A DNA stretch of 25,180 bases from an uncultured virus (IMG/VR IMGVR_UViG_3300046171_000301) (Duplodnaviria; Heunggongvirae; Uroviricota; Caudoviricetes): the IMG/VR virus record IMGVR_UViG_3300046171_000301. The stretch is one strand, 5' to 3'. Position numbers and translations under genes: made by a program. Shown piece by piece: positions 1,859 to 21,538 of the stretch (position 1 is its first letter; each line of letters begins with the position of its first letter). Under the pieces are notes generated by a model that was not told the DNA's origin, did not search any database, and was given only the letters and a program-made list of their open reading frames with translations.

Positions 1859-2283
1859 ACTTCTCCGATAATTCCTTTATACGTAGAAGCCAGTAATGAT
1901 TCCAATTGCATTATTTCTGTCTCTGATAAACCCTCAGGATTTGTTTGTAATTTTGCAAGCATTTGAGAAGTGGGAGATTGATCAATCATCATTCGACGAG
2001 TACCTTCTCCTAGTGCTCCTCCAAGAATTAATCCGACTAATCCACCAGCCATTCTGTTGCCAGGAGTTACTCTACCCTTTAAATTTTGCATCTTGCTGCG
2101 GCTTAAGCCTTGTCCTTCAGCAAGACGATCTTTGAGTTTATTAATTTGATTCCCAACAGTATGTGCACCTTGTCCAGCTAGTCCACCAATAACAGCACCA
2201 CTTGCGGCACCAATAATCGGAGCAGCGCCAGATTGCTCTTTCTCTTGTGCTAATTTAGCAAGCAAAAGTTCCTCAATATTCAT
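1855..2283 (-). CDS. Glycine-zipper hypothetical virion protein
   Basis: Two GxxxG-rich hydrophobic segments (GAASGAVIGGLAG; GGLVGLILGGALG). Contains the RMAG motif. Confidence 0.7.
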   Translation of the reverse strand: MNIEELLLAKLAQEKEQSGAAPIIGAASGAVIGGLAGQGAHTVGNQINKLKDRLAEGQGLSRSKMQNLKGRVTPGNRMAGGLVGLILGGALGEGTRRMMIDQSPTSQMLAKLQTNPEGLSETEIMQLESLLASTYKGIIGEV

Positions 2284-2311
2284 TGCTAATGACGCTTATA
2301 CTACCACTAGT

Positions 2312-2743
2312 TTAACTAATGAAAATAAGGTCATCCTTAATGAGTTGCTCCCAGTTAACCCGGGGAATATTCTCAAGCTGTTTTAAATTATTAAACCGCT
2401 CTCCAGACAATGACATACGTAGTTCAACAATACGTTTTGCTGTCGAATAACCAACACCTGGAAGTCGTTTTGCAATTTGCTCTGCCTCTGCAAGATTTAA
2501 ATTTAAACGTGTGTCGTCTAGCGGTACAACACGCTCTGGCAAAGCTTCTTCTTTTTCAACAACAAGTTGTGGGGCTTGAACTTTTTCTAACCTACCTTTT
2601 TTAGAATCATATGGAACCAACTCATCGAGAGATACATAGGAAATAGATCCATTGGCACCTCGAACCATTGCGTATTCTTTGTCGTGCTTACCTACGTATT
2701 CAACCAACGCTCCAGTCTTAGTGTTCTGAAATAAATTTGACAT
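2312..2743 (-). CDS. Helix-hairpin-helix (ComEA-like) DNA-binding protein with a small N-terminal beta domain
   Basis: RLNLNLAEAEQIAKRLPGVGYSTAKRIVELR...RFNNLKQLENIPRV matches the ComEA-type HhH pattern. TATAAT lies 23 nt upstream. Confidence 0.8.
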   Translation of the reverse strand: MSNLFQNTKTGALVEYVGKHDKEYAMVRGANGSISYVSLDELVPYDSKKGRLEKVQAPQLVVEKEEALPERVVPLDDTRLNLNLAEAEQIAKRLPGVGYSTAKRIVELRMSLSGERFNNLKQLENIPRVNWEQLIKDDLIFIS

Positions 2744-2777
2744 AGACTAATATCCCTTTCTTACTCATTATAAGCAT

Positions 2778-2804
2778 AAAAAAAGCGCCCAATTAGGGCG
2801 CTTT
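2778..2804 (-). terminator. Rho-independent terminator after the capsid and decoration genes
   Basis: The minus strand reads AAAGCGCCC-TAATT-GGGCGCTTT and continues into a T-run (plus-strand A tract 2778-2784). Confidence 0.9.
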
Positions 2805-2820
2805 AGTGTTAGCAAGAAGA

Positions 2821-3384: not shown

Positions 3385-3400
3385 TGTTAGTTACCTCCTA

Positions 3401-4549
3401 TCAATATACGAATGAGTAACCAACGGTGATGAAGTCCTTATTCAGGATTTCAAAACCAGCAAACAAGGACCAAATCATGATGATAAAACGGCTAAAATCG
3501 TCGTTGTTATTCAGCAAGATCTGAGCATTGTTTCCGCCGATGCCCACACCCACAGCCTGAGGTCCAAAGAAACAAAGTTGAGACATGTCGTAGTCAGCAG
3601 CGCCTGCAGCGGCGTCGGTAATCACGAGGTTTTCGTTCTTCTCAGGAAGGTTGGTTGATTCGAACCAGCGGACGCCTTCAAACAGGAAGCCAGTAGGCAT
3701 CACAGGTTGACCAGCCACAAAACCAGCCTGACCATATGCGGGACCCATACCTTGGTAGAAATTGGCATTAGGTGCAGCATTAGGCTGCATGGGGTTGATC
3801 ATGCCGCTACCGGGGTAACGTGCGATCTCCCTGAAGTCAGCGTTCTGACGCAAGTGCATCATTGCGGTGGGGTCCACGATGCAGCGGTAGTAGCCGTCAG
3901 CAAATGTGGGGACATTGCGCTTACGCATATCCTTAACGACCTCCAGGAGGTCAGTAGTCACGTCGAACTTGGCAGATTCGCCAGCTGCATAGGTGACGCC
4001 ATACACGCCGCCTGAGCCGCCCTTGGCTTTGCCACCGGGCAGGTAGTAGCCACCCTGTTCGGATGAGGCTTGGCCATTGCCATATGCTTTAAGCAGTTCG
4101 TTAGCAAACACACGATCGCGCCACCGGCGGTAGTCATCCAAAAGTGTAAGTGAACCAATGCTTTGGTGGAAGACGTTTAAGTTGCCTGTATCCAGCAGCA
4201 GACGCTGAGCTGTGATCAGGGTCTCACGAGCGACCTTGAAAGTAGAAGGCTGTGCAGAATCACGTGTATCGGCGGGGCCGGTGTATTCACGCAGGGTCAC
4301 GAGGACCTTGTCCTTCACAATGTTGCGGGCAGAAGCTGTACCAAGGGTTTGGTCGGCTGTCCGCTCACGGGACTCCTTAGTGCCAGGCTTGCCCCAGAAG
4401 CGGTACCTATCTAACTGAACAGTTTGACCAGGTTGCTTGCTGAAGTCATGCACGACCACCGGTTCCACGGCCATCTCAATGATGTAAGCCGGGTGGGGAC
4501 GATACAGTTCTGCACCAAGAAGCTTCGGAAAATCATTATCAATCCACAT
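3401..4549 (-). CDS. Major capsid protein (HK97 fold, N4-gp56-like)
   Basis: 382 aa with segments DFSKQPGQTVQLDRY, YYRCIVDP, FEGVRWFESTNLP, FFGPQAVG and DDFSRFIIMIWSLFAGFEIL, which resemble N4-gp56-type capsids. GGAG RBS, GC-rich codons, and followed by a decoration-like gene and a terminator. Confidence 0.85.
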   Translation of the reverse strand: MWIDNDFPKLLGAELYRPHPAYIIEMAVEPVVVHDFSKQPGQTVQLDRYRFWGKPGTKESRERTADQTLGTASARNIVKDKVLVTLREYTGPADTRDSAQPSTFKVARETLITAQRLLLDTGNLNVFHQSIGSLTLLDDYRRWRDRVFANELLKAYGNGQASSEQGGYYLPGGKAKGGSGGVYGVTYAAGESAKFDVTTDLLEVVKDMRKRNVPTFADGYYRCIVDPTAMMHLRQNADFREIARYPGSGMINPMQPNAAPNANFYQGMGPAYGQAGFVAGQPVMPTGFLFEGVRWFESTNLPEKNENLVITDAAAGAADYDMSQLCFFGPQAVGVGIGGNNAQILLNNNDDFSRFIIMIWSLFAGFEILNKDFITVGYSFVY

Positions 4550-5062: not shown

Positions 5063-5464
5063 ATGGCTGATAGTATTAAACTTGTTGGAGTAAAAAGAAT
5101 CTCTAATCAAACAGGTAATGATCTAGTACTTTCAAAGCCTACTGGTGGTGGAGATCAATTTAAGATTCGTCGATGGTGGAGTGACAATAAAAATTGTGCT
5201 GTATACGTGAACTGTACCAAACTAAATGTTTCACGTCCTACTGGTAATGTTGTATTAATGGTACCAGCGTCTCAAGACACAAGATTAGATATCAAATTTA
5301 ATGGAGATTCGACGTGGACGTTTGGTCCTGTATCTAGATCTGTAGATCGGGTAGGCGTATTTACAACTAACCTAGAACTGATTGAAGAATATGTTTTCTC
5401 ATCAGTTTCCGGTGGTAAAGTTATGAAGACTATTCCAGCAGGCGCTGCATCTTATCCAGCTTGA
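5063..5464 (+). CDS. Hypothetical beta-rich protein
   Basis: 133-aa ORF with TAGAAT (5032-5037) 25 nt upstream. Overlaps the next ORF tail-to-tail by 13 nt. Confidence 0.7.
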   Translation: MADSIKLVGVKRISNQTGNDLVLSKPTGGGDQFKIRRWWSDNKNCAVYVNCTKLNVSRPTGNVVLMVPASQDTRLDIKFNGDSTWTFGPVSRSVDRVGVFTTNLELIEEYVFSSVSGGKVMKTIPAGAASYPA

Positions 5465-6120
5465 CGTCTTTGATCGTCAGTCATAGAGTTGATAGATAGA
5501 TATTCTCTACCAATTTCAATTGAAATATTATATGGTAGTCGTACACTTCGTCTTGCGTGCAAGCCTACATAAAAAACGTCTTTAACGCCAACAAGAATAG
5601 AATTTGATTCATGCTGTAACTTATTTGAATCGTAGAGGCTAACATCCAACCAGTTATCTACATATTGGTTATTGGTTTTTAAATTATTTAAATCTACGCT
5701 AATACGAGCAGAATCGGGACTTGATAATTTGCTGTTGTATTCGGATTCTGTATAGGTTTGTCCGTTTAAAGTAGGATAACTCTCAAGTGCCGATTCATAA
5801 TCATTTGAACTTTCATTCCCTCCACGACTAACAATTACAGTTGAGTATCCATCAGGAGTTTCAACAGTTTGATACAAAGAAATTGCACTATTAATATTAA
5901 GAGAAAACTTTAAGTATACATTCTCAGCACCAAACAGACCAATATTTCCGGTGTAATTTAAAGTTAACGGAAAGGTGGTAAGGGTTTGACTAAAAGGCTT
6001 TTCAATTGAAGCACCCTTTGTAAAATTTAAGCTTTTTGATACAGAAAGGGTTGATGATTGTGTTCTGTCAGCAACGCCATATTTAATGTACCTTTCAAGT
6101 ATTGCTGGCGTTACGTCCAT
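5452..6120 (-). CDS. Hypothetical beta-rich, AT-rich protein
   Basis: 222-aa ORF with TAAAAT (6144-6149) 23 nt upstream. Confidence 0.7.
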   Translation of the reverse strand: MDVTPAILERYIKYGVADRTQSSTLSVSKSLNFTKGASIEKPFSQTLTTFPLTLNYTGNIGLFGAENVYLKFSLNINSAISLYQTVETPDGYSTVIVSRGGNESSNDYESALESYPTLNGQTYTESEYNSKLSSPDSARISVDLNNLKTNNQYVDNWLDVSLYDSNKLQHESNSILVGVKDVFYVGLHARRSVRLPYNISIEIGREYLSINSMTDDQRRQAG

Positions 6121-7124: not shown

Positions 7125-7727
7125 TTAAATATAGTCCATATGTTGCACGCCTGTCAACTTATCCTGTACAGAAAATTGTAATTTAGAGTCTTTCTTTTTG
7201 GGTTTATGTGTGCATTTACCTGTAACCATGTCAATATTAATTTCTTTAGGCTCAGCATCGCCCATCACATAATCTCTTTCAATATAAATAGTGTTGAATA
7301 TGTCTAGGTCTTTGTAAAAAAATCTTTTTATAGAACGGTCTCTGTTATAGGACATAACTGTATTAGTAGTAGCAGCGTGGTCCTTTGGATGTCCAAGACC
7401 TAGGGCATGGCCTAATTCATGAATTACAGTTGAATCGTAGTGATCTCCAATAACAGTTTTTAGTTTCCAAACTCGGTTATCAGGATGCCAAGACGCATTT
7501 CCTAGAATGTTGCCATAAAGACCTTCTACTGTTTTAACTCTTTTGCTACGAATTTCGGCTTCTTTTTTTAACTCTACTCTTTCGAAGTTAATGCCGAGGT
7601 CTTTTTCTAATTCATCTACTAATACTGGGAAATAATCAGATTTTTTATTAGCCCACCATGTAATGACACCATCATCGTACATTGGGATACTTGCATAGCC
7701 CATCCAATCAGCTATTAACTCATTCAT
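7125..7727 (-). CDS. Metzincin zinc metalloprotease (matrixin/M10-like)
   Basis: HELGHALGLGH (HExxHxxGxxH) followed by a Met-turn, TVMSYN. Confidence 0.88.
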   Translation of the reverse strand: MNELIADWMGYASIPMYDDGVITWWANKKSDYFPVLVDELEKDLGINFERVELKKEAEIRSKRVKTVEGLYGNILGNASWHPDNRVWKLKTVIGDHYDSTVIHELGHALGLGHPKDHAATTNTVMSYNRDRSIKRFFYKDLDIFNTIYIERDYVMGDAEPKEINIDMVTGKCTHKPKKKDSKLQFSVQDKLTGVQHMDYI

Positions 7728-7756: not shown

Positions 7757-8059
7757 TTATTCTAATGAATTAAAATCATAAATTCCTGCAAATCTAGTAT
7801 TGCTTTTTGGCGGCTCTTCTCGTCCTTCTAGTGCTTCAACTGCCATAGCTTGTGCAGCATGTTCGTTAAATCCTTTCTCCTTATACATATCAAAGTATTG
7901 CTGATATTTCTCAACCGAGCTTTCAAAGTCTTCTCCATGATTCAGCATCTCTGCTGTCATGTGATTAGCAGCCTGATCAGGCACACCGTCAGTTTTTAAA
8001 TGCTTCCAAATAGTCTGAAAGACTTCAGGGTTATCAGCATTATCACCAGCAAGACGCAC
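7757..8059 (-). CDS. Small hypothetical protein with two internal helical repeats
   Basis: GTG start, 100 aa. Repeats WKHLKTDGVPDQAANHMTAEML and FDMYKEKGFNEHAAQAMAVEAL. RLAG at the N-terminus and RFAG near the C-terminus. Confidence 0.7.
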   Translation of the reverse strand: MRLAGDNADNPEVFQTIWKHLKTDGVPDQAANHMTAEMLNHGEDFESSVEKYQQYFDMYKEKGFNEHAAQAMAVEALEGREEPPKSNTRFAGIYDFNSLE

Positions 8060-8596: not shown

Positions 8597-9646
8597 TCAA
8601 GCGTCTTGAATCAGCATTTTGGCCTGCAGAGCACCTTGAGGAGCTTGTTGCAGGTACTGCCAGGCTTGCTCAGGGTTCTGATCCATCAGCTGGCTAAAGT
8701 CGCCCCAGAAGCTAGAAGATCCTTGACCCTGACGATCGCCAGGTGTAGGCATATCCATGGTAGGACGTTGGAAGTTTGATGGAACTTGGCGCTGTTCTTG
8801 ATCCAAGATTTCCTGCTCAAACTGTGCACGTGATTCTATCTGCTGACGCGCTGCCATTTCTTCATCCGTTTCAGTCGGATAAGGGCCTTCAGGACCAAAG
8901 AAATCGTTTACATAATCAGCGAGAATATCAGGATCTGTCAGCATGATGTTCATAGCTGCACGCTCTTCGCCTGCTGCATCAAGCATCAGATTCATATCGT
9001 TGGCACGCTGCACTTGCTCGATTAAAGCGTCTTCAACGGCACATGAGTACTGATTAAGCAGGGCAGGGGCTTCAGCACCGAAGTGTTCAAGAACTTCAAG
9101 ACTAGTATCAGAGATCTGGCTCAGATATGCATCAGGAGCGCTTGCGCTTTGACCTTGGCTTTGCAGTTGGTCTACCAGTTGCGCTTGCTGATTGCTCAGC
9201 AACTGCTGGACTTGCTGCTCCGAATAAGCCGGGGTTGAAGCTGGGGCTAAATAAGTCTGCTGCGCCTGTTGGGAAGGCATTTGGGGTGCCGCCTGAGAAG
9301 CCCACGCCGCCTGGGTACTGACCTGAGGTGTCGGTGTCTGGTAAGCCGAGGACGGTACCTGGGCTTGGTATTGGCTGGGCGAATTCAGACTTGCGGAAAG
9401 AGCCTGGAACGCTGTTTGCCATGGGTTGGCCGCTTGCGCTGGTGTTGCCGCCGAAGCCTGCGGGGCCGCCGCTGTTTGGTAACCCTGGGGCTGCGGCGCT
9501 TGTGTTTGTACCGCTGCCTGAGGTGACGCCTGGTAGGTCGACGGCACGTTCATCGCGGGTTGGGAGGCCGAGCTCGGAGCGACGCTTGTCTGCATCGGAG
9601 AGCTTGTCTGGCCTACTGTCGCTACTGCTTGGTTTGTACCTTCCAC
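8597..9646 (-). CDS. Putative capsid scaffolding protein
   Basis: GTG start with AAGGAG 10 nt upstream. Q/A/P/S-rich disordered N-half and acidic helical C-half. Lies between portal and MCP, with GC-rich codons like the MCP. Confidence 0.65.
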   Translation of the reverse strand: MEGTNQAVATVGQTSSPMQTSVAPSSASQPAMNVPSTYQASPQAAVQTQAPQPQGYQTAAAPQASAATPAQAANPWQTAFQALSASLNSPSQYQAQVPSSAYQTPTPQVSTQAAWASQAAPQMPSQQAQQTYLAPASTPAYSEQQVQQLLSNQQAQLVDQLQSQGQSASAPDAYLSQISDTSLEVLEHFGAEAPALLNQYSCAVEDALIEQVQRANDMNLMLDAAGEERAAMNIMLTDPDILADYVNDFFGPEGPYPTETDEEMAARQQIESRAQFEQEILDQEQRQVPSNFQRPTMDMPTPGDRQGQGSSSFWGDFSQLMDQNPEQAWQYLQQAPQGALQAKMLIQDA

Positions 9647-12546: not shown

Positions 12547-12554
12547 CACTGGGC

Positions 12555-14093
12555 CTAAGAATCAAAACTATCACTATTGTAATCAACTTGCAAAGAACCT
12601 CTTCTCAGTAATCCACCAATTGTTAATACCATTGAGTCGACAGCATCATCGTGTGAAGCATGACCAAAGTTTAAAAGCTCTTCCTCTAAAACATCCCATT
12701 TTCTCCATTTGTTCCATACAATTTTTCTATGCTCATATAGTCCCAAGATTCCCCTTAGTCTTGCCAGTTTGTCGCCTCTAAAGCCTTTGACTGGAGAAAT
12801 TGCAAGGTTATACAAAGAACGATCTTCAAACATTATCCGTTTGAAATCACCTTCAAATGATGTTTGATATGCTACAGCTTCTGGCCAGATAACACAATGA
12901 GATGCTGTTGGAAAATATTGTCCATCTTCATTTTCAATAAGAATGTGCCAATCAGCAAGCATTTCACATAGAGTATCCATCTTTTCAATATTCCCCATAG
13001 ACCTACATCTTCTTTGATCAATCAAATAAATTTTGCTGTCACGAATTCCAGCAAGTGTAAATACAGTCCAGTCATTCTTTTCGCTTAAGCCTGCGCTAAG
13101 GTCAATCCCAACGCCAATGCAGTCATATTCATCAGGTACTTCACCGTGGATCAATAGATCTGGTGAAATGCCAACATCACTTGACTGCACTGCAGTATTT
13201 AAATACTGATAAGCAAAAGCCACCCGATCTTCTGCTTTACGCTCATTGAGATATTTCATTGACCAAAATTCAGGCCAATATGATCTTGATCTACCTTCCT
13301 CATCCGTTATTACTGCCTTCTGTACGATTTGTCTCCAGTTATTCTTTGGTACAAATAGCGTGGAGTGAATATCGTCAAAATGGAACCGGGTTCCCAAACA
13401 GATGGCTCTTGCCCCTTGAAACATCGTAGGTGCGATAACGTTTGACCACGTTGCTTCCATTTCACGCCGTATATCCGGGTTGTTGATGGCCGCAGCGGAT
13501 TTAATAGGGTCATCGATAAGTACCAGTTGCGATCTTTTCGAAGTGATCGCACCCTTGAGACCACCACACGCAATGGTAAACGCCTCTTCACCTGCTGTAT
13601 CAATACCCGCAAATTCATAGTCGATACTCCAGTACTCGTCAGATCTTTTTATTTTTGACAGACGTACCATTGGGAAGATTTCCCTATATTTTGCACTCGA
13701 TAAAATTCCTTTTATAGTTGCTGACTTGGCTCTACTAATGTCCACCATGTAAGCGATGTAGAGTATTCGCAGCATTTTCTTGGCAGCTGCATGTCTTCCA
13801 ATCATCCAAGCTGCAAACAAACCAAGGACAGTGCTTTTTGCAGAACCACGGGGTGCGAGGATCGATGTGTTTGGTCCCCCTACGCCTAATAGACATTCGC
13901 TGTCCTCTCCTGTACAAAGTTCATTGTGCCACTCCAGCATGTGCTTAGCGGGAGCCTTTCCCATCACTTTGCAAAATGCATGGAAGTTTTCGCGAGCCTC
14001 TATGACTTCCTGCGTAGGCGGCTTGCTTGTGACTTTTGTCGCAGTCATCAAAGCACTGCGCCTATAAGCTAATGATGCACTTGCAATTGCCAT
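12555..14093 (-). CDS. terL: Terminase large subunit
   Basis: Walker A APRGSAKST, Walker B LVLIDDP, coupling motif LGTRFHFDD, and RNase-H-like nuclease motifs VGIDLS...DWTVF and HDDAVDS. Confidence 0.95.
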   Translation of the reverse strand: MAIASASLAYRRSALMTATKVTSKPPTQEVIEARENFHAFCKVMGKAPAKHMLEWHNELCTGEDSECLLGVGGPNTSILAPRGSAKSTVLGLFAAWMIGRHAAAKKMLRILYIAYMVDISRAKSATIKGILSSAKYREIFPMVRLSKIKRSDEYWSIDYEFAGIDTAGEEAFTIACGGLKGAITSKRSQLVLIDDPIKSAAAINNPDIRREMEATWSNVIAPTMFQGARAICLGTRFHFDDIHSTLFVPKNNWRQIVQKAVITDEEGRSRSYWPEFWSMKYLNERKAEDRVAFAYQYLNTAVQSSDVGISPDLLIHGEVPDEYDCIGVGIDLSAGLSEKNDWTVFTLAGIRDSKIYLIDQRRCRSMGNIEKMDTLCEMLADWHILIENEDGQYFPTASHCVIWPEAVAYQTSFEGDFKRIMFEDRSLYNLAISPVKGFRGDKLARLRGILGLYEHRKIVWNKWRKWDVLEEELLNFGHASHDDAVDSMVLTIGGLLRRGSLQVDYNSDSFDS

Positions 14094-14117
14094 ATACTTA
14101 ATTCAAATAGTTTTACC

Positions 14118-14543
14118 TCATCTTATTACTTTATATAAGTCAGGACCCATTCCAAGCATTTGTCCTGCAAACCTTTTTGTATAAAGGTCATTACCTTGTG
14201 TATAGCCTCTACTGTAATAACCGAGTCGTTTTTTATTAGCACGTGATTGCTGATTAAAAAAATTATCTATTGCCTTTTCTTCAGCATTTGAAATAGCTTT
14301 CTGTTTAGCTAACTGTGATTTTGTGACTCCAAATGCAATTCCCATCTCTTGTGCACGCTTTGCTGCATCAAGGGCTTTCATGCTGTAACCACTAAGCGGA
14401 TCACTACCGACATTAGACATTGAAGGTAAGCCGGTATCTAGAGCGTCTTTTAGCTTCAATATGCTTACGTCGGTACTAGCAATCGCTGGTAACTCGACTC
14501 CTTTTTTTAAATGAGTGCTTAATTGCTGAGAAAATTTATCCAT
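14118..14543 (-). CDS. Hypothetical protein with RFAG motif near the C-terminus
   Basis: 141-aa ORF whose start overlaps the upstream stop. Confidence 0.7.
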   Translation of the reverse strand: MDKFSQQLSTHLKKGVELPAIASTDVSILKLKDALDTGLPSMSNVGSDPLSGYSMKALDAAKRAQEMGIAFGVTKSQLAKQKAISNAEEKAIDNFFNQQSRANKKRLGYYSRGYTQGNDLYTKRFAGQMLGMGPDLYKVIR

Positions 14544-15072: not shown

Positions 15073-16145
15073 TAGAACATACCCGCAAGGCTTCGTGCAT
15101 ATTTACTTTGATTAGCACGTGATTTTGCTTCTAGTCTATTCTGTCTTTCAAGAGTTTTTCTATCGTCATCACCTTTTGCACCAATGCTCCGAACGTCTGC
15201 ATCAGATTGTTCGTCTATGCGGTTAGTGTCGGTTTGGCGTGTTTCATCTCCAGTAGTTCTTATTTTCGACTCATCAACGTTCCCTTGTTCTTTAATGGTT
15301 GATCTGTCTTCAGACCCTTGCGTTTTAATCGTCTTCCTTGATTCTTGCCCAGTCGCTCCTATACGACCAACTCCTTTATCCGTATATTCAGTACCAATAT
15401 CACTTTCGTCTTTAGCTTTCTGAGTAGCTCTTTCTTCAACGCCTGCAGCGCCAATCCTACCGATACCTTGTTTAGTGTACTGAGTTCCTAAATCAGTTGA
15501 TCTATCTTCAGTACCTTGTAATCCGATAGCTTTTTGCTGTTCGCCAACAAGTAATCTATCTTCAGTACCTTTAGTTTCTAATGTACTTCTATCTTCTGTT
15601 CCTTGCCTCTTAACCTTCTTAATATCATTTCTGCCTTGAGCATCTAAATTCAACCGATTCTCAATACCTTCTAATTTAGTCTGCCTTTGAGTGATGTCTC
15701 CCGCTGAAGCCATTTGGTTTAGATTACGATTGGCTTCATCTACTGCAAAGCGAGATTGAAAGTCGTATTCAGAACCCATTTTTTGCATTCCATACACAAA
15801 CTCATCCTTCATCACTTGCGCCATATTTCGCTGCTCTAGATTTGCAGCTTGATTCATTGCGCCTGATGCAATTGTTTGATTAGCAAGCGCAAGTCCTTTT
15901 GCTTGCTCAGCATCAAATGCGGACTGCACAACATTACCTTGAAATGCCATCTTCATGGAGGCCATATCTTCATTATCAGTCGTGTCGTAGTTATAGAAAT
16001 CATTCATGATTCCTTGGAAGTTAAACATTCCTTGACCAACACCACCAGGAGCTAAATTAGGATTTTGCTGATTATATTCTTTTTTAGTCATGCCTGTGGC
16101 TGCTCTTTCAGCCTTACTCATGTCAGCCCAAGCTTTTTTTGCCAT
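15072..16145 (-). CDS. Putative internal/ejection protein with 11-residue repeats
   Basis: 357 aa with repeated G-x-E-[DE]-R-x-T units at ~11-aa spacing. TAGAAT lies 24 nt upstream. Confidence 0.7.
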   Translation of the reverse strand: MAKKAWADMSKAERAATGMTKKEYNQQNPNLAPGGVGQGMFNFQGIMNDFYNYDTTDNEDMASMKMAFQGNVVQSAFDAEQAKGLALANQTIASGAMNQAANLEQRNMAQVMKDEFVYGMQKMGSEYDFQSRFAVDEANRNLNQMASAGDITQRQTKLEGIENRLNLDAQGRNDIKKVKRQGTEDRSTLETKGTEDRLLVGEQQKAIGLQGTEDRSTDLGTQYTKQGIGRIGAAGVEERATQKAKDESDIGTEYTDKGVGRIGATGQESRKTIKTQGSEDRSTIKEQGNVDESKIRTTGDETRQTDTNRIDEQSDADVRSIGAKGDDDRKTLERQNRLEAKSRANQSKYARSLAGMF

Positions 16146-16168
16146 CTAACTTACACATGTATTAATTA

Positions 16169-16188
16169 CATTCTACAAAGTTAGAATG
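16169..16188. promoter_or_regulatory. Back-to-back divergent -10 elements
   Basis: CATTCTA-caaagt-TAGAATG gives TAGAAT on each strand, 24 nt and 20 nt from the divergent ATGs at 16145 and 16208. Confidence 0.7.
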
Positions 16189-16207
16189 GTAGAAACACTA
16201 GAGTGAT

Positions 16208-17269
16208 ATGTCGGCTGCAAGAGGCGTTAGTGCAAGTACATATGTAAGGGCTGGCAATACTGCTGCAGACGCCGCTATAGGGGCTATAAGGGCTGCTAGA
16301 CGTAACTCTCCCAACATGGGTGACATTGTCATAGAAGGGCAGAAGCAGCGGGCTCAGACCAAGGCTGTTGCACTTAAGGCTGAAGCTGATATCCACAACG
16401 CTGGTATTCGTAAAGAAGCAGCTGTCCGTAAAGCTAGGGTTCAGGCAGATCGAGATAAGTCACTTGCTAAATCAAAAGCTACCGTCCGTAAGGCAGGTAA
16501 GATTGCGGCTGCTGGTACTTTGATTGGCGATAGTATTACTGAAGGTAGAAATACAAGGGAGCGTAGAGATTTGTTGGCAAGAATGGAAGCGAAATCTGAG
16601 AAGAGGCATGCGGAAAGGCAAAAGCAGCATGCTGAACTTATTGAGCAACTTAAATCTAGGAACACCGGTTCCGATGACTCTATTCCCGTTACCGTAACAC
16701 CTGCTTCTATTGGACTCGATGTAAGTAGTCCCCCAAAGCCTAATGAAGAAGTAGCAAGTGCAAGTGGTGTTACTTCTCCCGACTCACCAGTCAGTCAAGG
16801 CATTGGTAGCTCTGAAGGGTGGGAGCGTTTAAGTCGTGTTATTCGATTTGGTGAGGGTACTACCGGTTCACGTGGATATAACACACAATTTACTGGTACA
16901 CAATTTGATGATTTATCTGCTCATCCACGGCAAAAAAAGACTAATGGCAGGTATACCTCTGATGCTGCAGGAGCTTATCAATTTTTATCTACTACATGGG
17001 ATGGGGCTAAAAAGGCTTTGAATCTTCCTGATTTTTCAATTTCCAGTCAAGAGAAAGCCGGTAGATATTTAACAGAGCAGCGTGGTGTCAATCCCGACAT
17101 GGTATTTAAATCTAAAAGTGAATTCAAAGCTGCTATGGATAAACTAGCCCCTGAATGGGCAAGTCTTCCTTATTCAGGTGTTAGTCCAGGTGGTTACGGT
17201 AAGGGGAGCTCTTACTATGGCCAAGGCGGTAAGAGTGTTGACGAGCTTTGGGATCTTTACAATAAATAA
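16208..17269 (+). CDS. Lambda-R-type lysozyme/lytic transglycosylase fused to an N-terminal helical domain, probably virion-associated
   Basis: C-terminal domain from ~aa 205: VIRFGEGT (catalytic Glu ~E216), SDAAGAYQFLSTTW, LPDFS, APEWASLP, YYGQ. The N-terminal domain is paralogous to 18421-19128 and 19128-19493. Confidence 0.88.
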   Translation: MSAARGVSASTYVRAGNTAADAAIGAIRAARRNSPNMGDIVIEGQKQRAQTKAVALKAEADIHNAGIRKEAAVRKARVQADRDKSLAKSKATVRKAGKIAAAGTLIGDSITEGRNTRERRDLLARMEAKSEKRHAERQKQHAELIEQLKSRNTGSDDSIPVTVTPASIGLDVSSPPKPNEEVASASGVTSPDSPVSQGIGSSEGWERLSRVIRFGEGTTGSRGYNTQFTGTQFDDLSAHPRQKKTNGRYTSDAAGAYQFLSTTWDGAKKALNLPDFSISSQEKAGRYLTEQRGVNPDMVFKSKSEFKAAMDKLAPEWASLPYSGVSPGGYGKGSSYYGQGGKSVDELWDLYNK

Positions 17270-17291
17270 TTTTAATTTAGGCTATGCCCGA

Positions 17292-17939: not shown

Positions 17940-18421
17940 CAGTATCTACCCCCCTGTAACATTGCTAAAGCTTCTTCCATTCTACGTTGTTCTGGAGTTT
18001 TCTTATCTCCAAACAAATACTGCAGACCGTCGCTGGCTTGTTTACCTGTACCAGCTCCAACAAGCATTCCCATAGGACCACCCGTCACTAATCCAACGCC
18101 GCCGCCTACAAGCATTCCTGCACCATCCATAATTCGGTTGCCGAGGCTTTCATCGCCCGCAACTACATCAGCAGCATCTAGTGCTACCAGTCCGGCTGAT
18201 AGGCCAGGGACGAAACGCAGTACTGCCTGTGCCGGCTTTGACGCAGCAAACCTAAGACCTTTCTTGCCGAAGATACTCCCAAGCTCTTTTGTAATTTGAT
18301 GTTGTGCTTTTGAGTTTTTACCTAAGAGAAAGTTTCCAACATCTCCAGCTGTAGTTTGCCGTATCTGCGGAATTAAAACGTCAGAACCGTACTCAGCTCC
18401 TCTAGACAAAAAGTCGTACAT
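17939..18421 (-). CDS. Glycine-zipper hydrophobic protein, putative ejection or membrane-penetrating protein
   Basis: 160 aa, coupled by TAATG. Contains GAGMLVGGGVGLVTGGPMGMLVGAGTG. Confidence 0.7.
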   Translation of the reverse strand: MYDFLSRGAEYGSDVLIPQIRQTTAGDVGNFLLGKNSKAQHQITKELGSIFGKKGLRFAASKPAQAVLRFVPGLSAGLVALDAADVVAGDESLGNRIMDGAGMLVGGGVGLVTGGPMGMLVGAGTGKQASDGLQYLFGDKKTPEQRRMEEALAMLQGGRY

Positions 18422-19128
18422 TAATTTACTCCTGCTAAAGCTTCTTTGGCTTCCATGCGCTGAATGCGAGTTTCTAGCTGTTGAATGCTGCGGACAAGTA
18501 GTCCGATTAACTCGTTGGTGTCAATACATAGCTTTCCAAGACTTTCATCAAAGTATGTTGCATCAGGCATATGCTCTTGATATTCCTGTGCAATAAATCC
18601 GTAATGAAGCCTGTGTGGATCTAATGTATATTCCTCATTGTAGTAAAAGCTTACAGGACGTAATTCACGCAGTAACGACAATGCATCATCGAGCTCTTCA
18701 ATAGTATTTTTAATAGTTTCATCGCTGGGCATCAACGCTCCCATGGCTAAAGCACCACCGACGCTTCCAAGAGCACTGAAAGCAGACCCAATCATAGATC
18801 CCTTCGCCTCTGCTGAAGCAGCTGCTTTTGCCGCATCGGCCTCTATTTTTGCAGCCTTAATCTGACCTTCCGCTGCTAAACCCTGTGAGTGAATAGAAGA
18901 CTCAGCTTGCATACCAGCACGGTTTACAAGACCACGTGCTGCAAGGCTGTTTCGTGTGATTTCACCATACTCAGGGGATTTTTTTCGAAGATCGTCATAG
19001 ATTGCACTTAGCTGACCTTGCTGTGCGGCACCAGCGTGTCCCTTACCGCCTAGGCCACTAAACATCTCTCCGGTACCACCAAAGCCACCGAAGTTTTTGA
19101 GATTATCGCCAGCAAGTCTTAAAGTCAT
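18421..19128 (-). CDS. Virion protein with a C-terminal intramolecular chaperone / peptidase S74 autocleavage domain
   Basis: SDETIKNTIEEL..ALSLLRELRPVSFYY...HYGFIAQEYQEHMP...LIGLLVRSIQQLETRI matches the S74 pattern, with the Ser135-Lys140 dyad intact. Confidence 0.88.
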   Translation of the reverse strand: MTLRLAGDNLKNFGGFGGTGEMFSGLGGKGHAGAAQQGQLSAIYDDLRKKSPEYGEITRNSLAARGLVNRAGMQAESSIHSQGLAAEGQIKAAKIEADAAKAAASAEAKGSMIGSAFSALGSVGGALAMGALMPSDETIKNTIEELDDALSLLRELRPVSFYYNEEYTLDPHRLHYGFIAQEYQEHMPDATYFDESLGKLCIDTNELIGLLVRSIQQLETRIQRMEAKEALAGVN

Positions 19129-19493
19129 TATTTTTCGTTTGGATTAGTAGGAGGAGTAGGACCAGGTCTATATTTAAGCCCTCCCATGACACCTGAAGCT
19201 ACGTTGCCAATGCCGTCAGCTATTCCACCAAATATTGCTGCATTACCCGCTTGTTGTCCCGCATATCTGCGTGCTTCACCTAAGTGTTTTGCAGATTCAA
19301 TGGCTGCCCCCTTACCAATTCCAGCGCTATGGATTTTTGCAATTTCTGTCATGGAGGTTGCATCTGTAGCACCTCTTTCAGCTATACCTCTAGTCGCTGT
19401 CTTGCCATAATCCTCTTTAGGATTCAAGAAATCTGTCACCGTCGGCAGCTGCAGACCCTCAAACGCTTTACCAGCAAACCTTCCGACAGACAT
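19128..19493 (-). CDS. Small Gly/Ala-rich virion protein consisting of the shared carrier domain alone
   Basis: 121 aa with TAGAAT (19516-19521) 22 nt upstream. Aligns without gaps to the N-termini of the S74 and lysozyme proteins. Confidence 0.75.
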   Translation of the reverse strand: MSVGRFAGKAFEGLQLPTVTDFLNPKEDYGKTATRGIAERGATDATSMTEIAKIHSAGIGKGAAIESAKHLGEARRYAGQQAGNAAIFGGIADGIGNVASGVMGGLKYRPGPTPPTNPNEK

Positions 19494-19524
19494 TTAATAA
19501 CATCGCAGTATCTATATTCTATAC

Positions 19525-20706
19525 TTATTGCAAATTACTATTATCAGAATTCATTAAATTATCTGCGTTATTACGCCTACGCCGTTCTTGCTCCAAAATA
19601 TTGCCTGCGATTTGGCCAGCAACTAAGCCAGTCATTCCACCGACAAAGCCACCACGTATAGGTCTTGATGTTCGTACACCAGCAGCTCCGCCTGCTAATG
19701 CACTTAGATACGGGACTACACCTGTAGTAACAGGGAGGCTTCTACCTAAGAACTGCATTTCAGGTCCATGAATGCCCTCGTCAGTGAACTTCAGTGCGCC
19801 AGCACCGATCGTCACATCTCCGTCTAGCGGATTCCAGTCTTCTTTTTTGTCATACTTAAAGCCTTTATATCGTCCATACTCTTCTGGAGATACATCAGGT
19901 CGTACCTTTACGAACTCGTTATACGGAAGAAGATTGCCCGTCCTGCCCATGATGTACTTAAGGCCCACTTCACCAACTACATTTGAAGTCTTGGTTGGAT
20001 CTTCATCACTAGGTAATGCTGCATAATATCCTTCAGCTCCACCAAATGGTGTCAATAACCCTAACCCTGAGTTGATGGCAACCCCTGTAGGTATAGCTAA
20101 TGATGCAACATGTCCAGGCTCAAAATTACGCTTCATTACAACAGCATCATCACCTTCACCATCAATTGAATAACCGCGTTTTAGGCGCTCCTTGCCGTTC
20201 ATCTTTTTAGTGATGCCTAATGCTTTCTGCGCTTGCTTATCCTTAGCCCTTAGTGGTTTATTGTTGTAAGTATTAGTGACAACTGATTTGCCATAAAGAT
20301 TAGGGTTTGCTTTGGCAAGCACAGCTTCATTGATTACATTGCCTGCGGCCTGTAAAGCATTTAATAGCCAGTACACGCTACGAGTAGTGTCTTGTGTTAA
20401 ATCAGATGCAACTGTTCCTACCCTTTGACCAAAGCGCTTTGCTCCTGTATCCATCATGCCCATGTCTAGCTCATTACGAGCTTGAACATAATTAGGGTCT
20501 GCCATACCCAAGGCTTCTCTTGTTCTATAGATCGTTGGATTGGTAGCCAACATAGAAGTCATGCGTGGCGCTTCTTTTTGCTTACCTTGAAGCTCACGAG
20601 CACGATAGAAACCCATTTGCTCATCTTCTCGGCCTTTGCCGTAGTCATTGGCAAAGCCTTCGCCAAACTCACTTAAGATATTTTTTATTCGCTGCAGCCT
20701 ACTCAT
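19525..20706 (-). CDS. Putative internal virion/ejection protein (393 aa)
   Basis: Start revised from 20847 to the ATG at 20706 (MSRLQRIKNILSEFG), which is TAATG-coupled to the upstream stop. Gly-rich hydrophobic C-terminal segments. Confidence 0.75.
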   Translation of the reverse strand: MSRLQRIKNILSEFGEGFANDYGKGREDEQMGFYRARELQGKQKEAPRMTSMLATNPTIYRTREALGMADPNYVQARNELDMGMMDTGAKRFGQRVGTVASDLTQDTTRSVYWLLNALQAAGNVINEAVLAKANPNLYGKSVVTNTYNNKPLRAKDKQAQKALGITKKMNGKERLKRGYSIDGEGDDAVVMKRNFEPGHVASLAIPTGVAINSGLGLLTPFGGAEGYYAALPSDEDPTKTSNVVGEVGLKYIMGRTGNLLPYNEFVKVRPDVSPEEYGRYKGFKYDKKEDWNPLDGDVTIGAGALKFTDEGIHGPEMQFLGRSLPVTTGVVPYLSALAGGAAGVRTSRPIRGGFVGGMTGLVAGQIAGNILEQERRRRNNADNLMNSDNSNLQ

Positions 20707-21224
20707 TAGCCAATACCACCAGTGCCTAATCCGCCAGGGTTTAAATAGTCGGTAGACCTTGGATAGAGCAACCCATGTTGTGCAAGTATCTGTTGCTCCA
20801 GTTCTTGTGCAAACCTCTCTTGATCCTGACGACCCATTTTCTCCCAAGGGGTTTCCCCTGATCCTCCCATTAATTTATCTTTGGCTCTAAGCACTTGCTC
20901 TGAAACAGGGATTGAGCCGTATCCGCCTCCCACACTGGCAATCATATCCACACCACTTGCAATTCCGGGCTTCCCTAGAAATGGGCGGGATGCCACTAAG
21001 CCCGTGCCTGCAGACATGCCAAAGTCAGTTAATCCTGTCAGTAATTTATCTCCAAGATCTCCAGGTGTTTGAGACGCATTTACAACAGCCATGGTGCCGT
21101 CCATTCCCAGCCTTAACCCTAATTCAGGAATAGAAGCAGCTACACCCTTCTTTATTGCACCGGGATTTCTTCCTAATAAATATTTGAGAGCTTGAAGACC
21201 TTTTGTACCTGCCATTCGAATCAT
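20706..21224 (-). CDS. Gly-rich hypothetical virion protein with N-terminal RMAG
   Basis: 172 aa, ATGA overlap with the upstream gene. Confidence 0.75.
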   Translation of the reverse strand: MIRMAGTKGLQALKYLLGRNPGAIKKGVAASIPELGLRLGMDGTMAVVNASQTPGDLGDKLLTGLTDFGMSAGTGLVASRPFLGKPGIASGVDMIASVGGGYGSIPVSEQVLRAKDKLMGGSGETPWEKMGRQDQERFAQELEQQILAQHGLLYPRSTDYLNPGGLGTGGIG

Positions 21225-21538
21225 GACGCAACTCCCCTCTGTGCTGCTTGTGCAGTCATTGCTTGTCTCATTTTAGCTTGATTGAACATTTCACCTTCAT
21301 TGCTTTGCCCAAACATATTCATCCACTGCTCTGCTGCTGCGGCTGCCTCTGGATTCATTAACTCAAGTGCTCTAGATCCCATTTGTCCAGCCATACGATT
21401 TTTGTTATTCCGCTCTAACTGGTTAGATGATTTAATCCGAACAACACCTGTATCAGTAGCAAAAGTTGCGGGATTCTCCCTTGCCTCTGCTTTGATTAAA
21501 TTACCTTGACGAATTGCTTGCGGATCAAAATTAGACAT
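21221..21538 (-). CDS. Hypothetical protein containing RMAGQM
   Basis: About 105 aa. The ATG at 21538 is preferred over the TTG at 21544. Confidence 0.7.
   Translation of the reverse strand: MSNFDPQAIRQGNLIKAEARENPATFATDTGVVRIKSSNQLERNNKNRMAGQMGSRALELMNPEAAAAAEQWMNMFGQSNEGEMFNQAKMRQAMTAQAAQRGVAS

What the first reader, a model, noticed from the sequence alone, without database searches (positions are those of the whole stretch)
2044..21397. Peptide tag R-[L/M/F]-A-G in seven unrelated proteins: candidate capsid-targeting or maturation-cleavage signal
Seen in sequence, eight copies in seven unknown proteins. N-terminal: M-RLAGDN (8045-8056), MTL-RLAGDN (19108-19119), MSVG-RFAG (19470-19481), MI-RMAG (21207-21218). 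C-terminal: RFAG (7784-7795) and RFAGQM (14163-14174). Internal: RMAGQM (21386-21397) and RMAG (2044-2055). Flanks also recur (RLAGDN twice, R[FM]AGQM twice), and variants exist (RYAG in 19128-19493, RKAG in the lysozyme fusion, RSLAG at the end of 15072-16145). The codons differ between copies, so the conservation is at the protein level. I found no copy in the MCP, portal, terminase, sigma, HNH or protease. A rough estimate with assumed typical residue frequencies gives about 0.5 chance hits in the ~7,500 aa encoded here. Established: T4 internal proteins use a short capsid-targeting sequence, and prohead proteases cut short motifs. Inference: this is an address label for loading proteins into the prohead, or a cleavage site, possibly for the metzincin at 7125-7727.
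Basis: partly seen in the sequence, partly recalled or inferred. Interest (0 to 1): 0.85.

Follow-up and report, generated by a model that had tools for sequence, protein, structure and literature searches.

The report
Shared Arg-x-Ala-Gly tag on cyanophage proteins
Many unrelated late proteins of this uncultured marine cyanophage, a relative of phage S-EIV1, carry the same conserved four-residue peptide (Arg, a hydrophobic residue or Lys, Ala, Gly), mostly on a floppy end, and it looks like a docking label for building the virus particle, but what binds it is still unknown.

Summary
All eight R-[LMF]-A-G copies lie at the stated coordinates, against 0.54 expected from shuffles.

As a loose pattern (R-x-A-G) in this window alone it is unremarkable. 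What makes it real is three things:
- It clusters at N-termini (P about 0.002 over all comparable patterns).
- It is conserved in orthologues of 30-80% identity, with free synonymous codon turnover.
- It is absent from MCP, portal, TerL and sigma.

At least ten protein families of this marine S-EIV1-like cyanophage lineage carry it. In relatives, a kinase-like and an ADP-ribosyltransferase-like enzyme outside the structural block carry it too.

Best reading (about 0.45): a portable docking label that brings proteins into the assembling particle. The known systems that work most like it are the 80alpha/SaPI1 RIIK hook, encapsulin targeting peptides and the T4 CTS.

Cleavage by the neighbouring metzincin is not supported, because that gene is sporadic.

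This scan had already noted the same motif in freshwater S-EIV1 relatives (finding e1-6029976). I found no description in print.

The parts
8045..8056 (-). N-terminal tag RLAG (residues 2-5) of the 100-aa protein 7757-8059
   Evidence: 23 of 27 distinct orthologues have R-[hydrophobic/K]-A-G in these columns (RKAG 14, RLAG 5). A4 is invariant and R2 at least 90% conserved in alignment A2. AF2 pLDDT is under 50 for residues 1-8.
7784..7795 (-). C-terminal tag RFAG of the same protein, 8 residues from its end
   Evidence: RFA[GR] in 24 of 27 orthologues (RFAR 18, RFAG 6, RFAM 2). R89, F90 and A91 are invariant in A2. AF2 gives a short low-confidence helix at 88-94.
7757..8059 (-). Small acidic four-helix protein with a tag at each end, lying between portal and MCP; scaffold-like or adaptor candidate
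   Evidence: AF2 model mc8976e5ae060: helices 11-23, 28-41, 45-61 and 66-77, mean pLDDT 64.8. No informative fold match. No Pfam, PHROG or NCBIfam family at threshold.
14163..14174 (-). Tag RFAG (then QMLGMG), 14 residues from the C-end of 14118-14543, the gene between the TerS-like gene and TerL
   Evidence: 39 of 62 orthologues lack this C-terminal extension. Of the 23 that have it: RFAG 9, RFAR 1, [NH]FAR 5.
15075..15095 (-). Extreme C-terminal variant R-S-L-A-G-M-F of the repeat protein 15072-16145
   Evidence: In relatives this family is 177 to 1,233 aa long, yet nearly all members end in R-x-[LMT]-A-[GR]-x-F.
16487..16498 (+). Internal RKAG (residue 94) of the lysozyme/SLT fusion 16208-17269, followed by an Ala/Gly-rich stretch
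   Evidence: 22 of 39 family members hold a strict motif near this position. [KM]-A-G is kept in about 26 of 37 aligned orthologues. Endolysin PHROG_90, E 1e-30.
18242..18253 (-). Degenerate copy RFAA (residues 57-60) in 17939-18421
   Evidence: 12 of 18 orthologues have R-x-A-[GR] here (RFAG 8, RMAG 2).
19108..19119 (-). N-terminal RLAG (residue 4) of 18421-19128, a short protein with a C-terminal Peptidase_S74 intramolecular chaperone domain
   Evidence: PF13884, E 6.8e-15. Weakly conserved: 3 of 21 orthologues.
19470..19481 (-). N-terminal RFAG (residue 5) of 19128-19493
   Evidence: Only two orthologues were found, and they keep R-F (RFAN, RF-N). Too few to judge.
21207..21218 (-). N-terminal RMAG (residue 3) of 20706-21224
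   Evidence: 5 to 6 of 14 orthologues keep it; others have RMAL, KFAG or RLTG, some after an extra 20-70 residues. The gene in the same position in S-EIV1 starts V-RLAG.
21386..21397 (-). Internal RMAG (residue 50) of 21221-21544
   Evidence: Kept in 7 of 9 orthologues. Column identities for R/A/G are 1.00/0.90/0.80, against 0.46 for the flanks.
2044..2055 (-). Internal RMAG (residue 77) of 1855-2283, at the start of a glycine zipper
   Evidence: Strict motif in 34 of 50 distinct upstream-neighbour ORFs. R-x-A-G in about 43 of 47 aligned true orthologues, always followed by G-L-V-G-x-I-L-G-G. Gly-zipper_Omp E 0.0012, below the family cut-off.
3401..4549 (-). Major capsid protein (HK97 fold), motif-free; candidate reader, untested in effect
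   Evidence: PHROG_1357 major head protein, E 9.5e-19. AF2 pLDDT 80.1, pTM 0.77, with an N-terminal helix at 3-14. Foldseek top hits are cyanopodophage P-SCSP1u and Pan3 capsids, E about 5e-12. 0 of 21 family members hold the motif.
9132..11414 (-). Portal protein, motif-free
   Evidence: PHROG_20475, E 2e-176. 44% identical to the S-EIV1 protein. 0 of 67 family members hold the motif.
12555..14093 (-). Large terminase, motif-free in this clade
   Evidence: PHROG_38, E 3e-67. 55.6% identical to S-EIV1 TerL. 1 of 82 family members holds the motif.
7125..7727 (-).
   Evidence: PF00413, E 6.2e-7. Present in 5 of 28 loci that hold both neighbours. Absent from the 114 scanned ORFs of complete relative G001.
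5455..5466 (-). RQAG at the C-end of 5452-6120: chance copy, not part of the system
   Evidence: Not conserved in any of 23 orthologues.

Best explanation
R-[M/F/K/L]-A-G, often continued as polar-x-Leu, with a C-terminal spelling hydrophobic-A-[G/R]-x-[F/Y], is a portable short linear docking motif of the S-EIV1-like cyanophages.

It sits on flexible ends or linkers of many unrelated late proteins. I propose that one common partner in the assembling particle binds it. The most likely partner is the inner face of the procapsid, either the MCP N-arm region or a scaffold. The tagged proteins would then be built into, or packed inside, the virion and delivered to the host.

The likely clients include:
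- small Gly-rich, probably membrane-active proteins;
- a lysozyme/SLT protein;
- a repeat protein of variable length;
- in relatives, a kinase-like and an ADP-ribosyltransferase-like enzyme.

The 100-aa helical protein between portal and MCP carries one tag at each end. It may be a scaffold-like or bridging protein that uses the same site.

**Shown:** the motif exists, is selected as a peptide, is confined to certain families, is biased to chain ends, and lies in a low-confidence end of the one carrier that was folded.

For: 1. **Conserved islands.** The R/A/G columns are far more conserved than the ±10-residue flanks and the protein mean in 6 of 8 family alignments. Per instance: 23/27, 24/27, 7/9, about 43/47 and 12/18.
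2. **Selection on the peptide.** Within single families all six Arg codons and all four Ala and Gly codons are used.
3. **Family-specific.** Strict motif at the N-end in 25/31 and at the C-end in 25/31 of the 100-aa family. It occurs in 0/21 MCP, 0/67 portal, 1/82 TerL, 0/29 sigma, 1/72 TerS-like, 0/26, 0/20 and 0/22 members of other families.
4. **Position.** The same family can carry the tag at residue 2-5 or after a variable 20-70-residue extension. The repeat protein varies from 177 to 1,233 aa but keeps the tag as its last 6-7 residues. This is how a docking peptide on a flexible end behaves.
5. **Flexibility.** In the AF2 model of the 100-aa protein, residues 1-8 and 95-100 have pLDDT under 50.
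6. **Module bias.** Observed against expected in the late block: G001 8 vs 1.35, G003 7 vs 1.46, S-EIV1 9 vs 1.43. In the rest of S-EIV1 it is 0 vs 1.14. The 4 copies outside the late block of G001 are all terminal, against 0.22 expected.
7. **Cargo-like carriers.**
   - Lysozyme/SLT protein.
   - Kinase-like protein: Atlas score 0.97 for OspG/Pkinase clusters. M-R-[YK]-A-G-x-L is kept in all 5 orthologues of 58-83% identity.
   - ADP-ribosyltransferase-like protein with the tag 11 residues from its C-end: PF03496 E 2.8e-4, below the cut-off; Atlas score 0.96.
8. **Precedents for the mechanism, from passages read.**
   - The 80alpha scaffold and SaPI1 CpmB share a C-terminal helix-and-hook with an RIIK motif that binds the MCP N-arm (PMC5644958).
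   - Encapsulin targeting peptides work at the C-end, and as TVGSL at the N-end of ferredoxins (PMC8346489).
   - The T4 CTS (PMC3012670).
Against: - No reader was identified and no binding is shown.
- No virion proteomics for this lineage could be read. The S-EIV1 paper is not held, so it is not known that any carrier is in the particle.
- As a loose pattern in this window alone, the motif is not exceptional.
- G002 shows no enrichment in its late block: 1 vs 1.07.
- In the freshwater S-EIV1 clade, the bulk count of R-hyd/K-A-G (72) is not above same-composition permutations (41-75). Specific families there do keep RLAG.
- In several families the motif directly opens an Ala/Gly-rich or glycine-zipper helix. 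There it may be part of that structure and not a separate label.
- The tag on the S74 fibre protein is poorly conserved: 3/21.
- The lysozyme fusion lies on the opposite strand and may be an ordinary endolysin.
- The G/R switch at position 4 in two families does not co-vary beyond what phylogeny gives.
Confidence: 0.45

Rival explanations
1. Maturation-cleavage site. A phage or host protease cuts at or beside R-x-A-G. This would trim propeptides from internal and structural proteins, as T4 gp21 or the phiKZ protease do. The motif might double as the end of a loading signal.
For: The extensions before the motif are variable and poorly conserved: 0 to 70 residues in the 20706-21224 family, and the motif at residues 3 to 135 in the post-TerL family. 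They look like propeptides. The motif occurs at N-terminal, internal and C-proximal places, as protease sites do. The window holds a matrixin-like metzincin beside a doubly tagged protein. From my own recall, not tested here, matrix metalloproteases favour a hydrophobic residue followed by small residues after the cut.
Against: - The metzincin is in only 5 of 28 loci, and the tags persist in 22 of 23 loci without it.
- No prohead-protease or metzincin family was found among 114 ORFs of the complete relative G001, nor in the window apart from the metzincin.
- MCP and portal, the usual substrates, have no copy: 0/21 and 0/67.
- Arg at residue 2 of the chain, or only two residues after the Gly at a C-end, leaves almost nothing on one side of a scissile bond.
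- Lys at position 2 (26 of 125 non-redundant instances) fits a hydrophobic pocket poorly.
Confidence: 0.2
2. Structural start signal of small-residue helices. Arg plus hydrophobic-Ala-Gly would be the cap of a glycine-zipper or amphipathic helix used by membrane-active ejection or lysis proteins, for self-association or membrane insertion. On this reading there is no separate reader. The recurrence is convergence, or shuffling of one helix module.
For: - In 1855-2283 the motif is always followed by G-L-V-G-x-I-L-G-G.
- Other cases of the same kind: RMAG followed by an A/G-rich stretch, the lysozyme fusion R[KM]AG plus an Ala/Gly-rich stretch, RFAG followed by E-[IV]-L-G-M-G, and S-EIV1 RLAG followed by G-L-I-G-G-G.
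- Leu is enriched at +3 and small residues follow.
- There is a weak Gly-zipper_Omp hit.
- R-x-A-A is also common in the marine loci: 122.
Against: Many well-conserved copies are followed by polar or acidic, non-zipper sequence. Examples are the two ends of the 100-aa protein, the N-end of the post-TerL proteins, the kinase-like enzyme and the C-end of the repeat protein. The motif at the last 6-7 residues of a chain cannot open a helix. Glycine zippers do not require an invariant Arg and Ala.
Confidence: 0.2
3. The motif is a docking label, but for a reader outside the virion. Candidates are a chaperone, an unfoldase/protease adaptor, the host or phage transcription machinery, or a membrane site. 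It would then organise timing, folding or turnover of late proteins and not their packaging.
For: In G001, G002 and G003, terminal copies occur on proteins encoded far from the structural block: kinase-like, ART-like and small unknown proteins. No structural protein could be tied to the tag. From my own recall, not tested, N- and C-terminal basic-hydrophobic peptides are typical recognition signals of AAA+ unfoldases.
Against: Copies are strongly concentrated in the late/structural block in 3 of 4 genomes, with none in the other 14,188 aa of S-EIV1. No phage-encoded chaperone or AAA+ family was seen in the complete relative. The enzymes outside the block are of the kinds that phages are known to package.
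Confidence: 0.13
4. Chance plus Ala/Gly/Arg-rich composition and post hoc choice of the pattern.
For: The loose pattern R-x-A-G is not exceptional in this window once all comparable patterns are considered: 299 of 300 shuffles hold a pattern at least as extreme. RQAG, RYAG and the fibre copy are not conserved.
Against: - The N-terminal clustering passes the look-elsewhere test (P 0.002 and 0.0012).
- Orthologues keep the columns while codons change.
- Same-composition permutations are 4.5 to 9.6 times rarer in 80 marine loci.
- The motif was independently noted in another genome of the lineage.
Confidence: 0.02

Closest known systems
RIIK helix-and-hook at the C-termini of phage 80alpha scaffolding protein and SaPI1 CpmB (PMC5644958; abstract and passages read)
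   Same: It is a four-residue Arg-plus-hydrophobic motif at a chain end, shared by proteins that otherwise differ, and it docks them on one site of an HK97-fold capsid protein (next to the N-arm helix). The C-end of the 100-aa protein here is preceded by a short predicted helix, and the MCP model has an N-terminal helix at 3-14.
   Different: The spelling differs. Here the motif also works at N-ends and inside chains, and is spread over at least ten families instead of two. Binding to MCP is not shown here.
Encapsulin targeting peptides / cargo-loading peptides (PMC8346489; passages read)
   Same: Short conserved peptides on otherwise unrelated cargo proteins, at the C-end or, in ferredoxins, the N-end, bind the inside of an HK97-fold shell and decide what is enclosed. 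Enzymes are the cargo.
   Different: The consensus is Gly-Ser-Leu-rich, not Arg-x-Ala-Gly. The shell there is a cell compartment with no DNA, portal or tail. The pocket uses an N-terminal helix that replaces the phage N-arm.
Capsid targeting sequence (CTS) of phage T4 internal proteins and Alt (PMC3012670; passages read)
   Same: One short conserved signal on a diverse, fast-evolving set of proteins loads them into the prohead for injection. T4 Alt is an ADP-ribosyltransferase (my recall), and a relative here has a tagged ADP-ribosyltransferase-like protein.
   Different: As I recall it, the T4 CTS is N-terminal only, about 10 residues long, aimed at the scaffolding core and removed by the prohead protease gp21. 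Here the tags are 4-7 residues, sit at either end or inside, and no prohead protease is detectable.
Earlier finding of this scan, e1-6029976 (freshwater S-EIV1 relatives)
   Same: The same R-[LIMF]-A-G peptide, mostly at the front of unrelated small proteins, read as a docking label with an unknown reader.
   Different: That finding is on other DNA, in the freshwater clade. The present window shows the marine clade, where M, F and K dominate at position 2, and where there is a C-terminal spelling, enzyme carriers and a doubly tagged protein between portal and MCP.

Membership tests
T4-type capsid targeting sequence | Signal at the extreme N-terminus of proteins packed in the head | tested here: inconclusive
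   4 of 8 window copies start at residues 2-5. Others are internal or C-terminal. Whether any carrier is in the head is unknown.
T4-type capsid targeting sequence | Removal by a prohead protease encoded by the phage | tested here: inconclusive
   No prohead-protease family in the window or in 114 ORFs of complete relative G001. Profile searches can miss a divergent protease.
Encapsulin targeting peptide | Shell protein with the HK97 fold | tested here: met
   The MCP model (pLDDT 80.1) matches phage HK97-fold capsids at E about 5e-12. It is a phage capsid protein, not an encapsulin.
Encapsulin targeting peptide | Gly-Ser-Leu-type consensus, as quoted in PMC8346489 | tested here: not met
   The motif here is R-[MFKL]-A-G, with no resemblance to the quoted consensus.
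Encapsulin targeting peptide | The peptide binds the inner face of the shell protein | not testable with these tools
   It needs a binding assay or a procapsid structure.
80alpha/SaPI1 RIIK helix-and-hook | C-terminal amphipathic helix followed by an Arg-hydrophobic hook, shared by different proteins | tested here: inconclusive
   The C-end of the 100-aa family has invariant R-F-A with a predicted short helix at 88-94 of low confidence. The repeat protein ends in R-x-L-A-[GR]-x-F. The spelling differs from RIIK.
80alpha/SaPI1 RIIK helix-and-hook | Contact with the MCP N-arm helix | not testable with these tools
   The MCP model has an N-terminal helix at 3-14. No contact information is available.
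Prohead-protease cleavage motif (T4 gp21, phiKZ type) | The motif is also present in MCP, scaffold or portal, which are processed | tested here: not met
   0 of 21 MCP and 0 of 67 portal sequences hold the motif.
Prohead-protease cleavage motif (T4 gp21, phiKZ type) | A conserved protease gene travels with the motif | tested here: not met
   The only protease seen, the metzincin, is in 5 of 28 loci. The tags persist in 22 of 23 loci without it.
Glycine zipper (PF13488) | Score above the Pfam gathering threshold | tested here: not met
   1855-2283 scores 19.2 bits against a cut-off of 25. The G-x-x-x-G-x-x-x-G run after the motif is plain in the alignment.

The most novel reading that the evidence does not exclude
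S-EIV1-like cyanophages use a general cargo-loading code. Any protein that carries R-hydrophobic-A-G on a floppy end is captured by the inner face of the procapsid, at the same site that a small doubly tagged scaffold-like protein uses. It is then packed with the DNA and injected. This would be a tailed-phage counterpart of encapsulin targeting peptides. It would let the phage deliver a changing set of effectors, including kinase-like and ADP-ribosyltransferase-like enzymes, a cell-wall hydrolase and membrane-active proteins, simply by moving a four-residue tag.
Probability: 0.25. Interest if true: 0.85.

Novelty: new variant of a known kind. Interest (0 to 1): 0.62.

Why it matters
If the tag is a loading or docking label, it gives three things:
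- a simple sequence rule for predicting which unknown proteins of an abundant but almost uncultured marine and freshwater cyanophage lineage are in the virion or are injected;
- a way to find phage effectors encoded outside the structural module;
- a very short handle for packing foreign proteins into a phage particle.

It would also link three separately known systems: the scaffold hook of 80alpha/SaPI1, encapsulin targeting peptides and the T4 CTS. All three would be versions of one principle, short peptides that dock on HK97-fold shells.

If the motif is instead only a helix cap of Gly-rich proteins, the finding is of local interest.

Tried and rejected
1. **Complex prediction.** I submitted MCP (alignment A1) with the doubly tagged 100-aa protein (alignment A2). 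After many refusals because the queue was full, the job ran once. The verdict was 'no answer', score 0.00 against a mark of 0.32, with the partner's own fold uncertain. This is neither support nor evidence against, and no other candidate reader could be tried.
2. **Fold of the 100-aa protein.** Foldseek against the PDB gave no match at E 0.001 or better. VIA-align wide gave a best Z of 5.3, within the noise for helical bundles. A profile search against PDB sequences gave nothing below E 0.16.
3. **Co-variation of G and R at motif position 4.** I compared the C-ends of the 100-aa family and the repeat-protein family: GG 6, RR 9, mixed 5 over 20 loci. There are only 3 and 2 changes on the TerL tree, too few independent pairs, and the pattern cannot be separated from phylogeny.
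4. **Bulk enrichment of loose R-x-A-G in the window alone.** Not significant after look-elsewhere correction.
Rejected.
6. **A nucleotide-level motif.** Rejected, because codons turn over freely, including CGN and AGR for Arg.
7. **Orthologues of the ADP-ribosyltransferase-like protein.** None found in IMG/VR, only the protein itself, so conservation of its tag is untested.
8. **phmmer of the kinase-like and ART-like proteins against PDB sequences.** Nothing significant.
9. **The S-EIV1 description paper.** Not held by DOI or PMC id.
10. **Whole genome of the window.** Not held.
11. **Megablast of the window against 50,697 phage records.** No match.
12. **NCBIfam scan of 29 window proteins.** Added nothing on scaffold or protease.

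Full report
**What the window is.** Nearly all long ORFs lie on the minus strand. Profile searches name the following:
- a major head protein (3401-4549)
- a portal-sized virion protein (9132-11414)
- a large terminase (12555-14093)
- a sigma-70 factor (6147-7106)
- an HNH endonuclease
- a matrixin-like metzincin (7125-7727)
- a lysozyme/SLT fusion on the plus strand (16208-17269)
- a short protein with a C-terminal Peptidase_S74 chaperone domain (18421-19128)

The only named phage with a clear relative of the terminase (55.6% identity; the next best about 24%) or of the portal (44%) is Synechococcus phage S-EIV1. Eleven window proteins find S-EIV1 proteins, in the same gene order. There is no DNA-level match among 50,697 phage records.

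IMG/VR holds 232 relatives of the terminase. I kept 80 loci, with 83-94% terminase identity. A complete 82-kb relative (G001) carries psbA, transaldolase, ferredoxin, MazG, RNR and ThyX. The window is therefore the late module of an uncultured marine cyanophage of the S-EIV1 lineage. A preprint describes such a marine lineage with S-EIV1 as its nearest isolate (10.1101/325100, passages read).

The AF2 model of the MCP (pLDDT 80.1, pTM 0.77) matches HK97-fold capsids, best those of cyanopodophages P-SCSP1u and Pan3.

Per-protein shuffles give 0.54 copies where 8 are seen. They give 0.014 proteins with a copy in the first ten residues where 4 are seen.

One test went against the claim. With a free second position, the pattern (11 copies) ranks 15th among all comparable patterns, and 299 of 300 shuffled proteomes hold something at least as extreme. 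Enrichment inside this one window therefore rests partly on a post hoc choice of residues.

Three independent lines settle the matter:
- The N-terminal clustering is unique among all X-x-Y-Z patterns (P 0.002 and 0.0012).
- In the 80 marine loci the motif (173 copies) is 4.5 to 9.6 times commoner than five same-composition permutations.
- Above all, orthologues of 30-80% identity keep it.

**Conservation, instance by instance**:

| Window coordinates | Result in orthologues |
|---|---|
| 8045-8056 | 23 of 27 |
| 7784-7795 | RFA[GR] in 24 of 27 |
| 21386-21397 | 7 of 9 |
| 2044-2055 | about 43 of 47 as R-x-A-G |
| 21207-21218 | 5-6 of 14, with near variants |
| 14163-14174 | kept in most of the 23 orthologues that have the C-terminal extension; 39 of 62 lack it |
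| 19108-19119 | only 3 of 21 |
| 19470-19481 | only two orthologues |

RYAG and the C-terminal RQAG are not conserved.

Two further points:
- The R, A and G columns stand out from their flanks in 6 of 8 families.
- Within families all six Arg codons and all four Ala and Gly codons occur, so selection acts on the peptide.

**How far it reaches.** I clustered 944 ORFs of the loci with the window and S-EIV1. The motif is a family trait:
- **The 100-aa protein.** Tag at the N-end in 25/31 and at the C-end in 25/31.
- **The gene after TerL.** Many relatives begin M-A-R-K-A-G or M-x-x-x-R-M-A-G.
- **The repeat protein before the TerS-like gene.** It is 177 to 1,233 aa long and almost always ends R-x-[LMT]-A-[GR]-x-F.
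- **The lysozyme fusion.** 22/39 carry the motif, near residue 94.
- **The 17939-18421 family.** 14/23 carry it; the window itself has RFAA.
- **Several small families** also carry it.

Other families lack it: MCP (0/21), portal (0/67), TerL (1/82), sigma (0/29), the TerS-like protein (1/72) and four more.

Over 125 non-redundant instances, position 2 is M 36, F 27, K 26, L 15. The residue after Gly is polar, and Leu is enriched two places further on.

The freshwater S-EIV1 clade (59 loci) prefers RLAG and keeps it in specific families. Examples are residue 9 of the gene before TerL (12-13 of 30) and residue about 70 of the S-EIV1 48012-48629 family (23 of 51). Its bulk count, however, is not above permutations. 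This agrees with an earlier finding of this scan on other DNA (e1-6029976).

**Where in the genome.** In the late block the motif is enriched in three of four genomes:

| Genome | Late block, observed vs expected |
|---|---|
| G001 | 8 vs 1.35 |
| G003 | 7 vs 1.46 |
| S-EIV1 | 9 vs 1.43 |
| G002 | 1 vs 1.07 (contig ends before the tagged gene cluster) |

In the rest of S-EIV1 there are 0 copies against 1.14 expected.

The four copies outside the late block of G001 are all terminal (0.22 expected). Two of them sit on enzymes:
- **Kinase-like protein.** Atlas score 0.97 for OspG/Pkinase clusters. Its N-terminal M-R-[YK]-A-G-x-L is kept in all five orthologues.
- **ADP-ribosyltransferase-like protein.** PF03496 E 2.8e-4, below the cut-off. 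Atlas score 0.96. The tag lies 11 residues from its C-end. No orthologues were found to test conservation.

**What it most likely does.** The anatomy is that of a short linear docking motif:
- It is a small conserved island in variable, low-confidence ends. The AF2 model of the 100-aa protein has residues 1-8 and 95-100 under pLDDT 50.
- It is usable at either end or in a linker.
- It is portable between unrelated families.
- It is missing from the core machine parts.

I therefore read it as an address label bound by one common partner during particle assembly. The carriers are Gly-rich, probably membrane-active small proteins, a wall hydrolase and enzymes of the kinds phages inject. The interior of the procapsid is thus the most plausible destination. 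The doubly tagged helical protein between portal and MCP is a plausible scaffold-like user of the same site.

Three known systems work this way, according to the passages I read:
- the RIIK helix-and-hook shared by the 80alpha scaffold and SaPI1 CpmB, which docks beside the MCP N-arm (PMC5644958);
- encapsulin targeting peptides, at the C-end or the N-end (PMC8346489);
- the T4 CTS (PMC3012670).

None of the binding steps is shown here. They are inference.

**Rivals.**
- **Cleavage.** This is less likely. The metzincin is sporadic, no prohead protease is detectable, and MCP and portal lack the motif. Many copies also sit within one or two residues of a chain end.
- **Structural reading.** The motif could be the cap of a glycine-zipper or small-residue helix. 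This fits 1855-2283 and several other families. It does not fit the well-conserved copies followed by acidic or polar sequence, nor those at the very C-end.
- **A reader outside the virion.** This cannot be excluded.
- **Chance.** The orthologue data exclude it.

**Novelty.** I found no description of this motif in four full-text searches:
- S-EIV1 with cyanophage
- capsid targeting sequence
- S-EIV1 with proteomic and virion
- short linear motif with virion proteins and docking

The S-EIV1 paper itself could not be read. The kind of thing, a short peptide that docks proteins on an HK97-fold shell, is known. What is new is the spelling, its use at both ends and inside chains, and its spread over at least ten families plus enzymes. 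The scan had already flagged the motif in freshwater relatives, so this window is a second, independent sighting that extends it to the marine clade.

Noticed in passing
window 15072-16145 and 11437-12549: These two otherwise different proteins share a second N-terminal module (K-K-x-W ... S-x-x-E-K/R ... Q-x-N-P ... G-G). In relatives, the gene after TerL carries either this module or the N-terminal R-K/M-A-G tag, as if N-terminal modules were exchangeable.
   Followed up: partly
window 15072-16145 and its family in L003-L082: The length varies from 177 to 1,233 aa through repeats of a T-Q-G-x-E-D-R type, while both ends stay constant. The N-end is an F-N-F-Q..M..F-Y module and the C-end is the tag. 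What sets or uses the length is unexplained.
   Followed up: no
window 19525-20847 and 8597-9646: Both listed ORFs are probably over-extended. The first overlaps 20706-21224 and most likely starts at the ATG at 20706. The second overlaps the portal gene by about 500 nt, and only its C-terminal ~175 aa match S-EIV1.
   Followed up: partly
window 6147-7106: A full-length sigma-70 gene (regions 1.2, 2, 3, 4) sits inside the structural module between portal and MCP. It is 67-81% conserved in 28 related loci.
   Followed up: no
window 7125-7727: A matrixin/serralysin-like zinc protease gene is present in only 5 of 28 comparable loci, so it is an accessory gene of unknown role.
   Followed up: partly
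window 9132-9640 (C-terminal ~170 aa of the portal): The portal has a long Gly/Ser/Pro-rich, probably disordered C-terminal extension that ends in a basic cluster.
   Followed up: no
L002 (S-EIV1) 14080-16620 and 20784-22010: S-EIV1 TerL is annotated as 846 aa. The window's 512-aa TerL matches it in two blocks with about 330 extra residues between them, so there may be an inserted element. The S-EIV1 MCP is annotated only as a 156-aa C-terminal piece beside an opposite-strand ORF, so the record's annotation there looks incomplete.
   Followed up: no
G001 (L083-L087): The complete 82-kb relative encodes psbA, transaldolase, ferredoxin, MazG, RNR, ThyX, a SET-domain protein, an IF-1-like protein and a cyanophage OMP-like beta-barrel protein.
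   Followed up: no
window 18421-19128: A Peptidase_S74 intramolecular chaperone domain (normally at the end of long tail fibres or spikes) is attached to only about 130 Gly-rich residues, which makes an unusually short 'fibre'.
   Followed up: no
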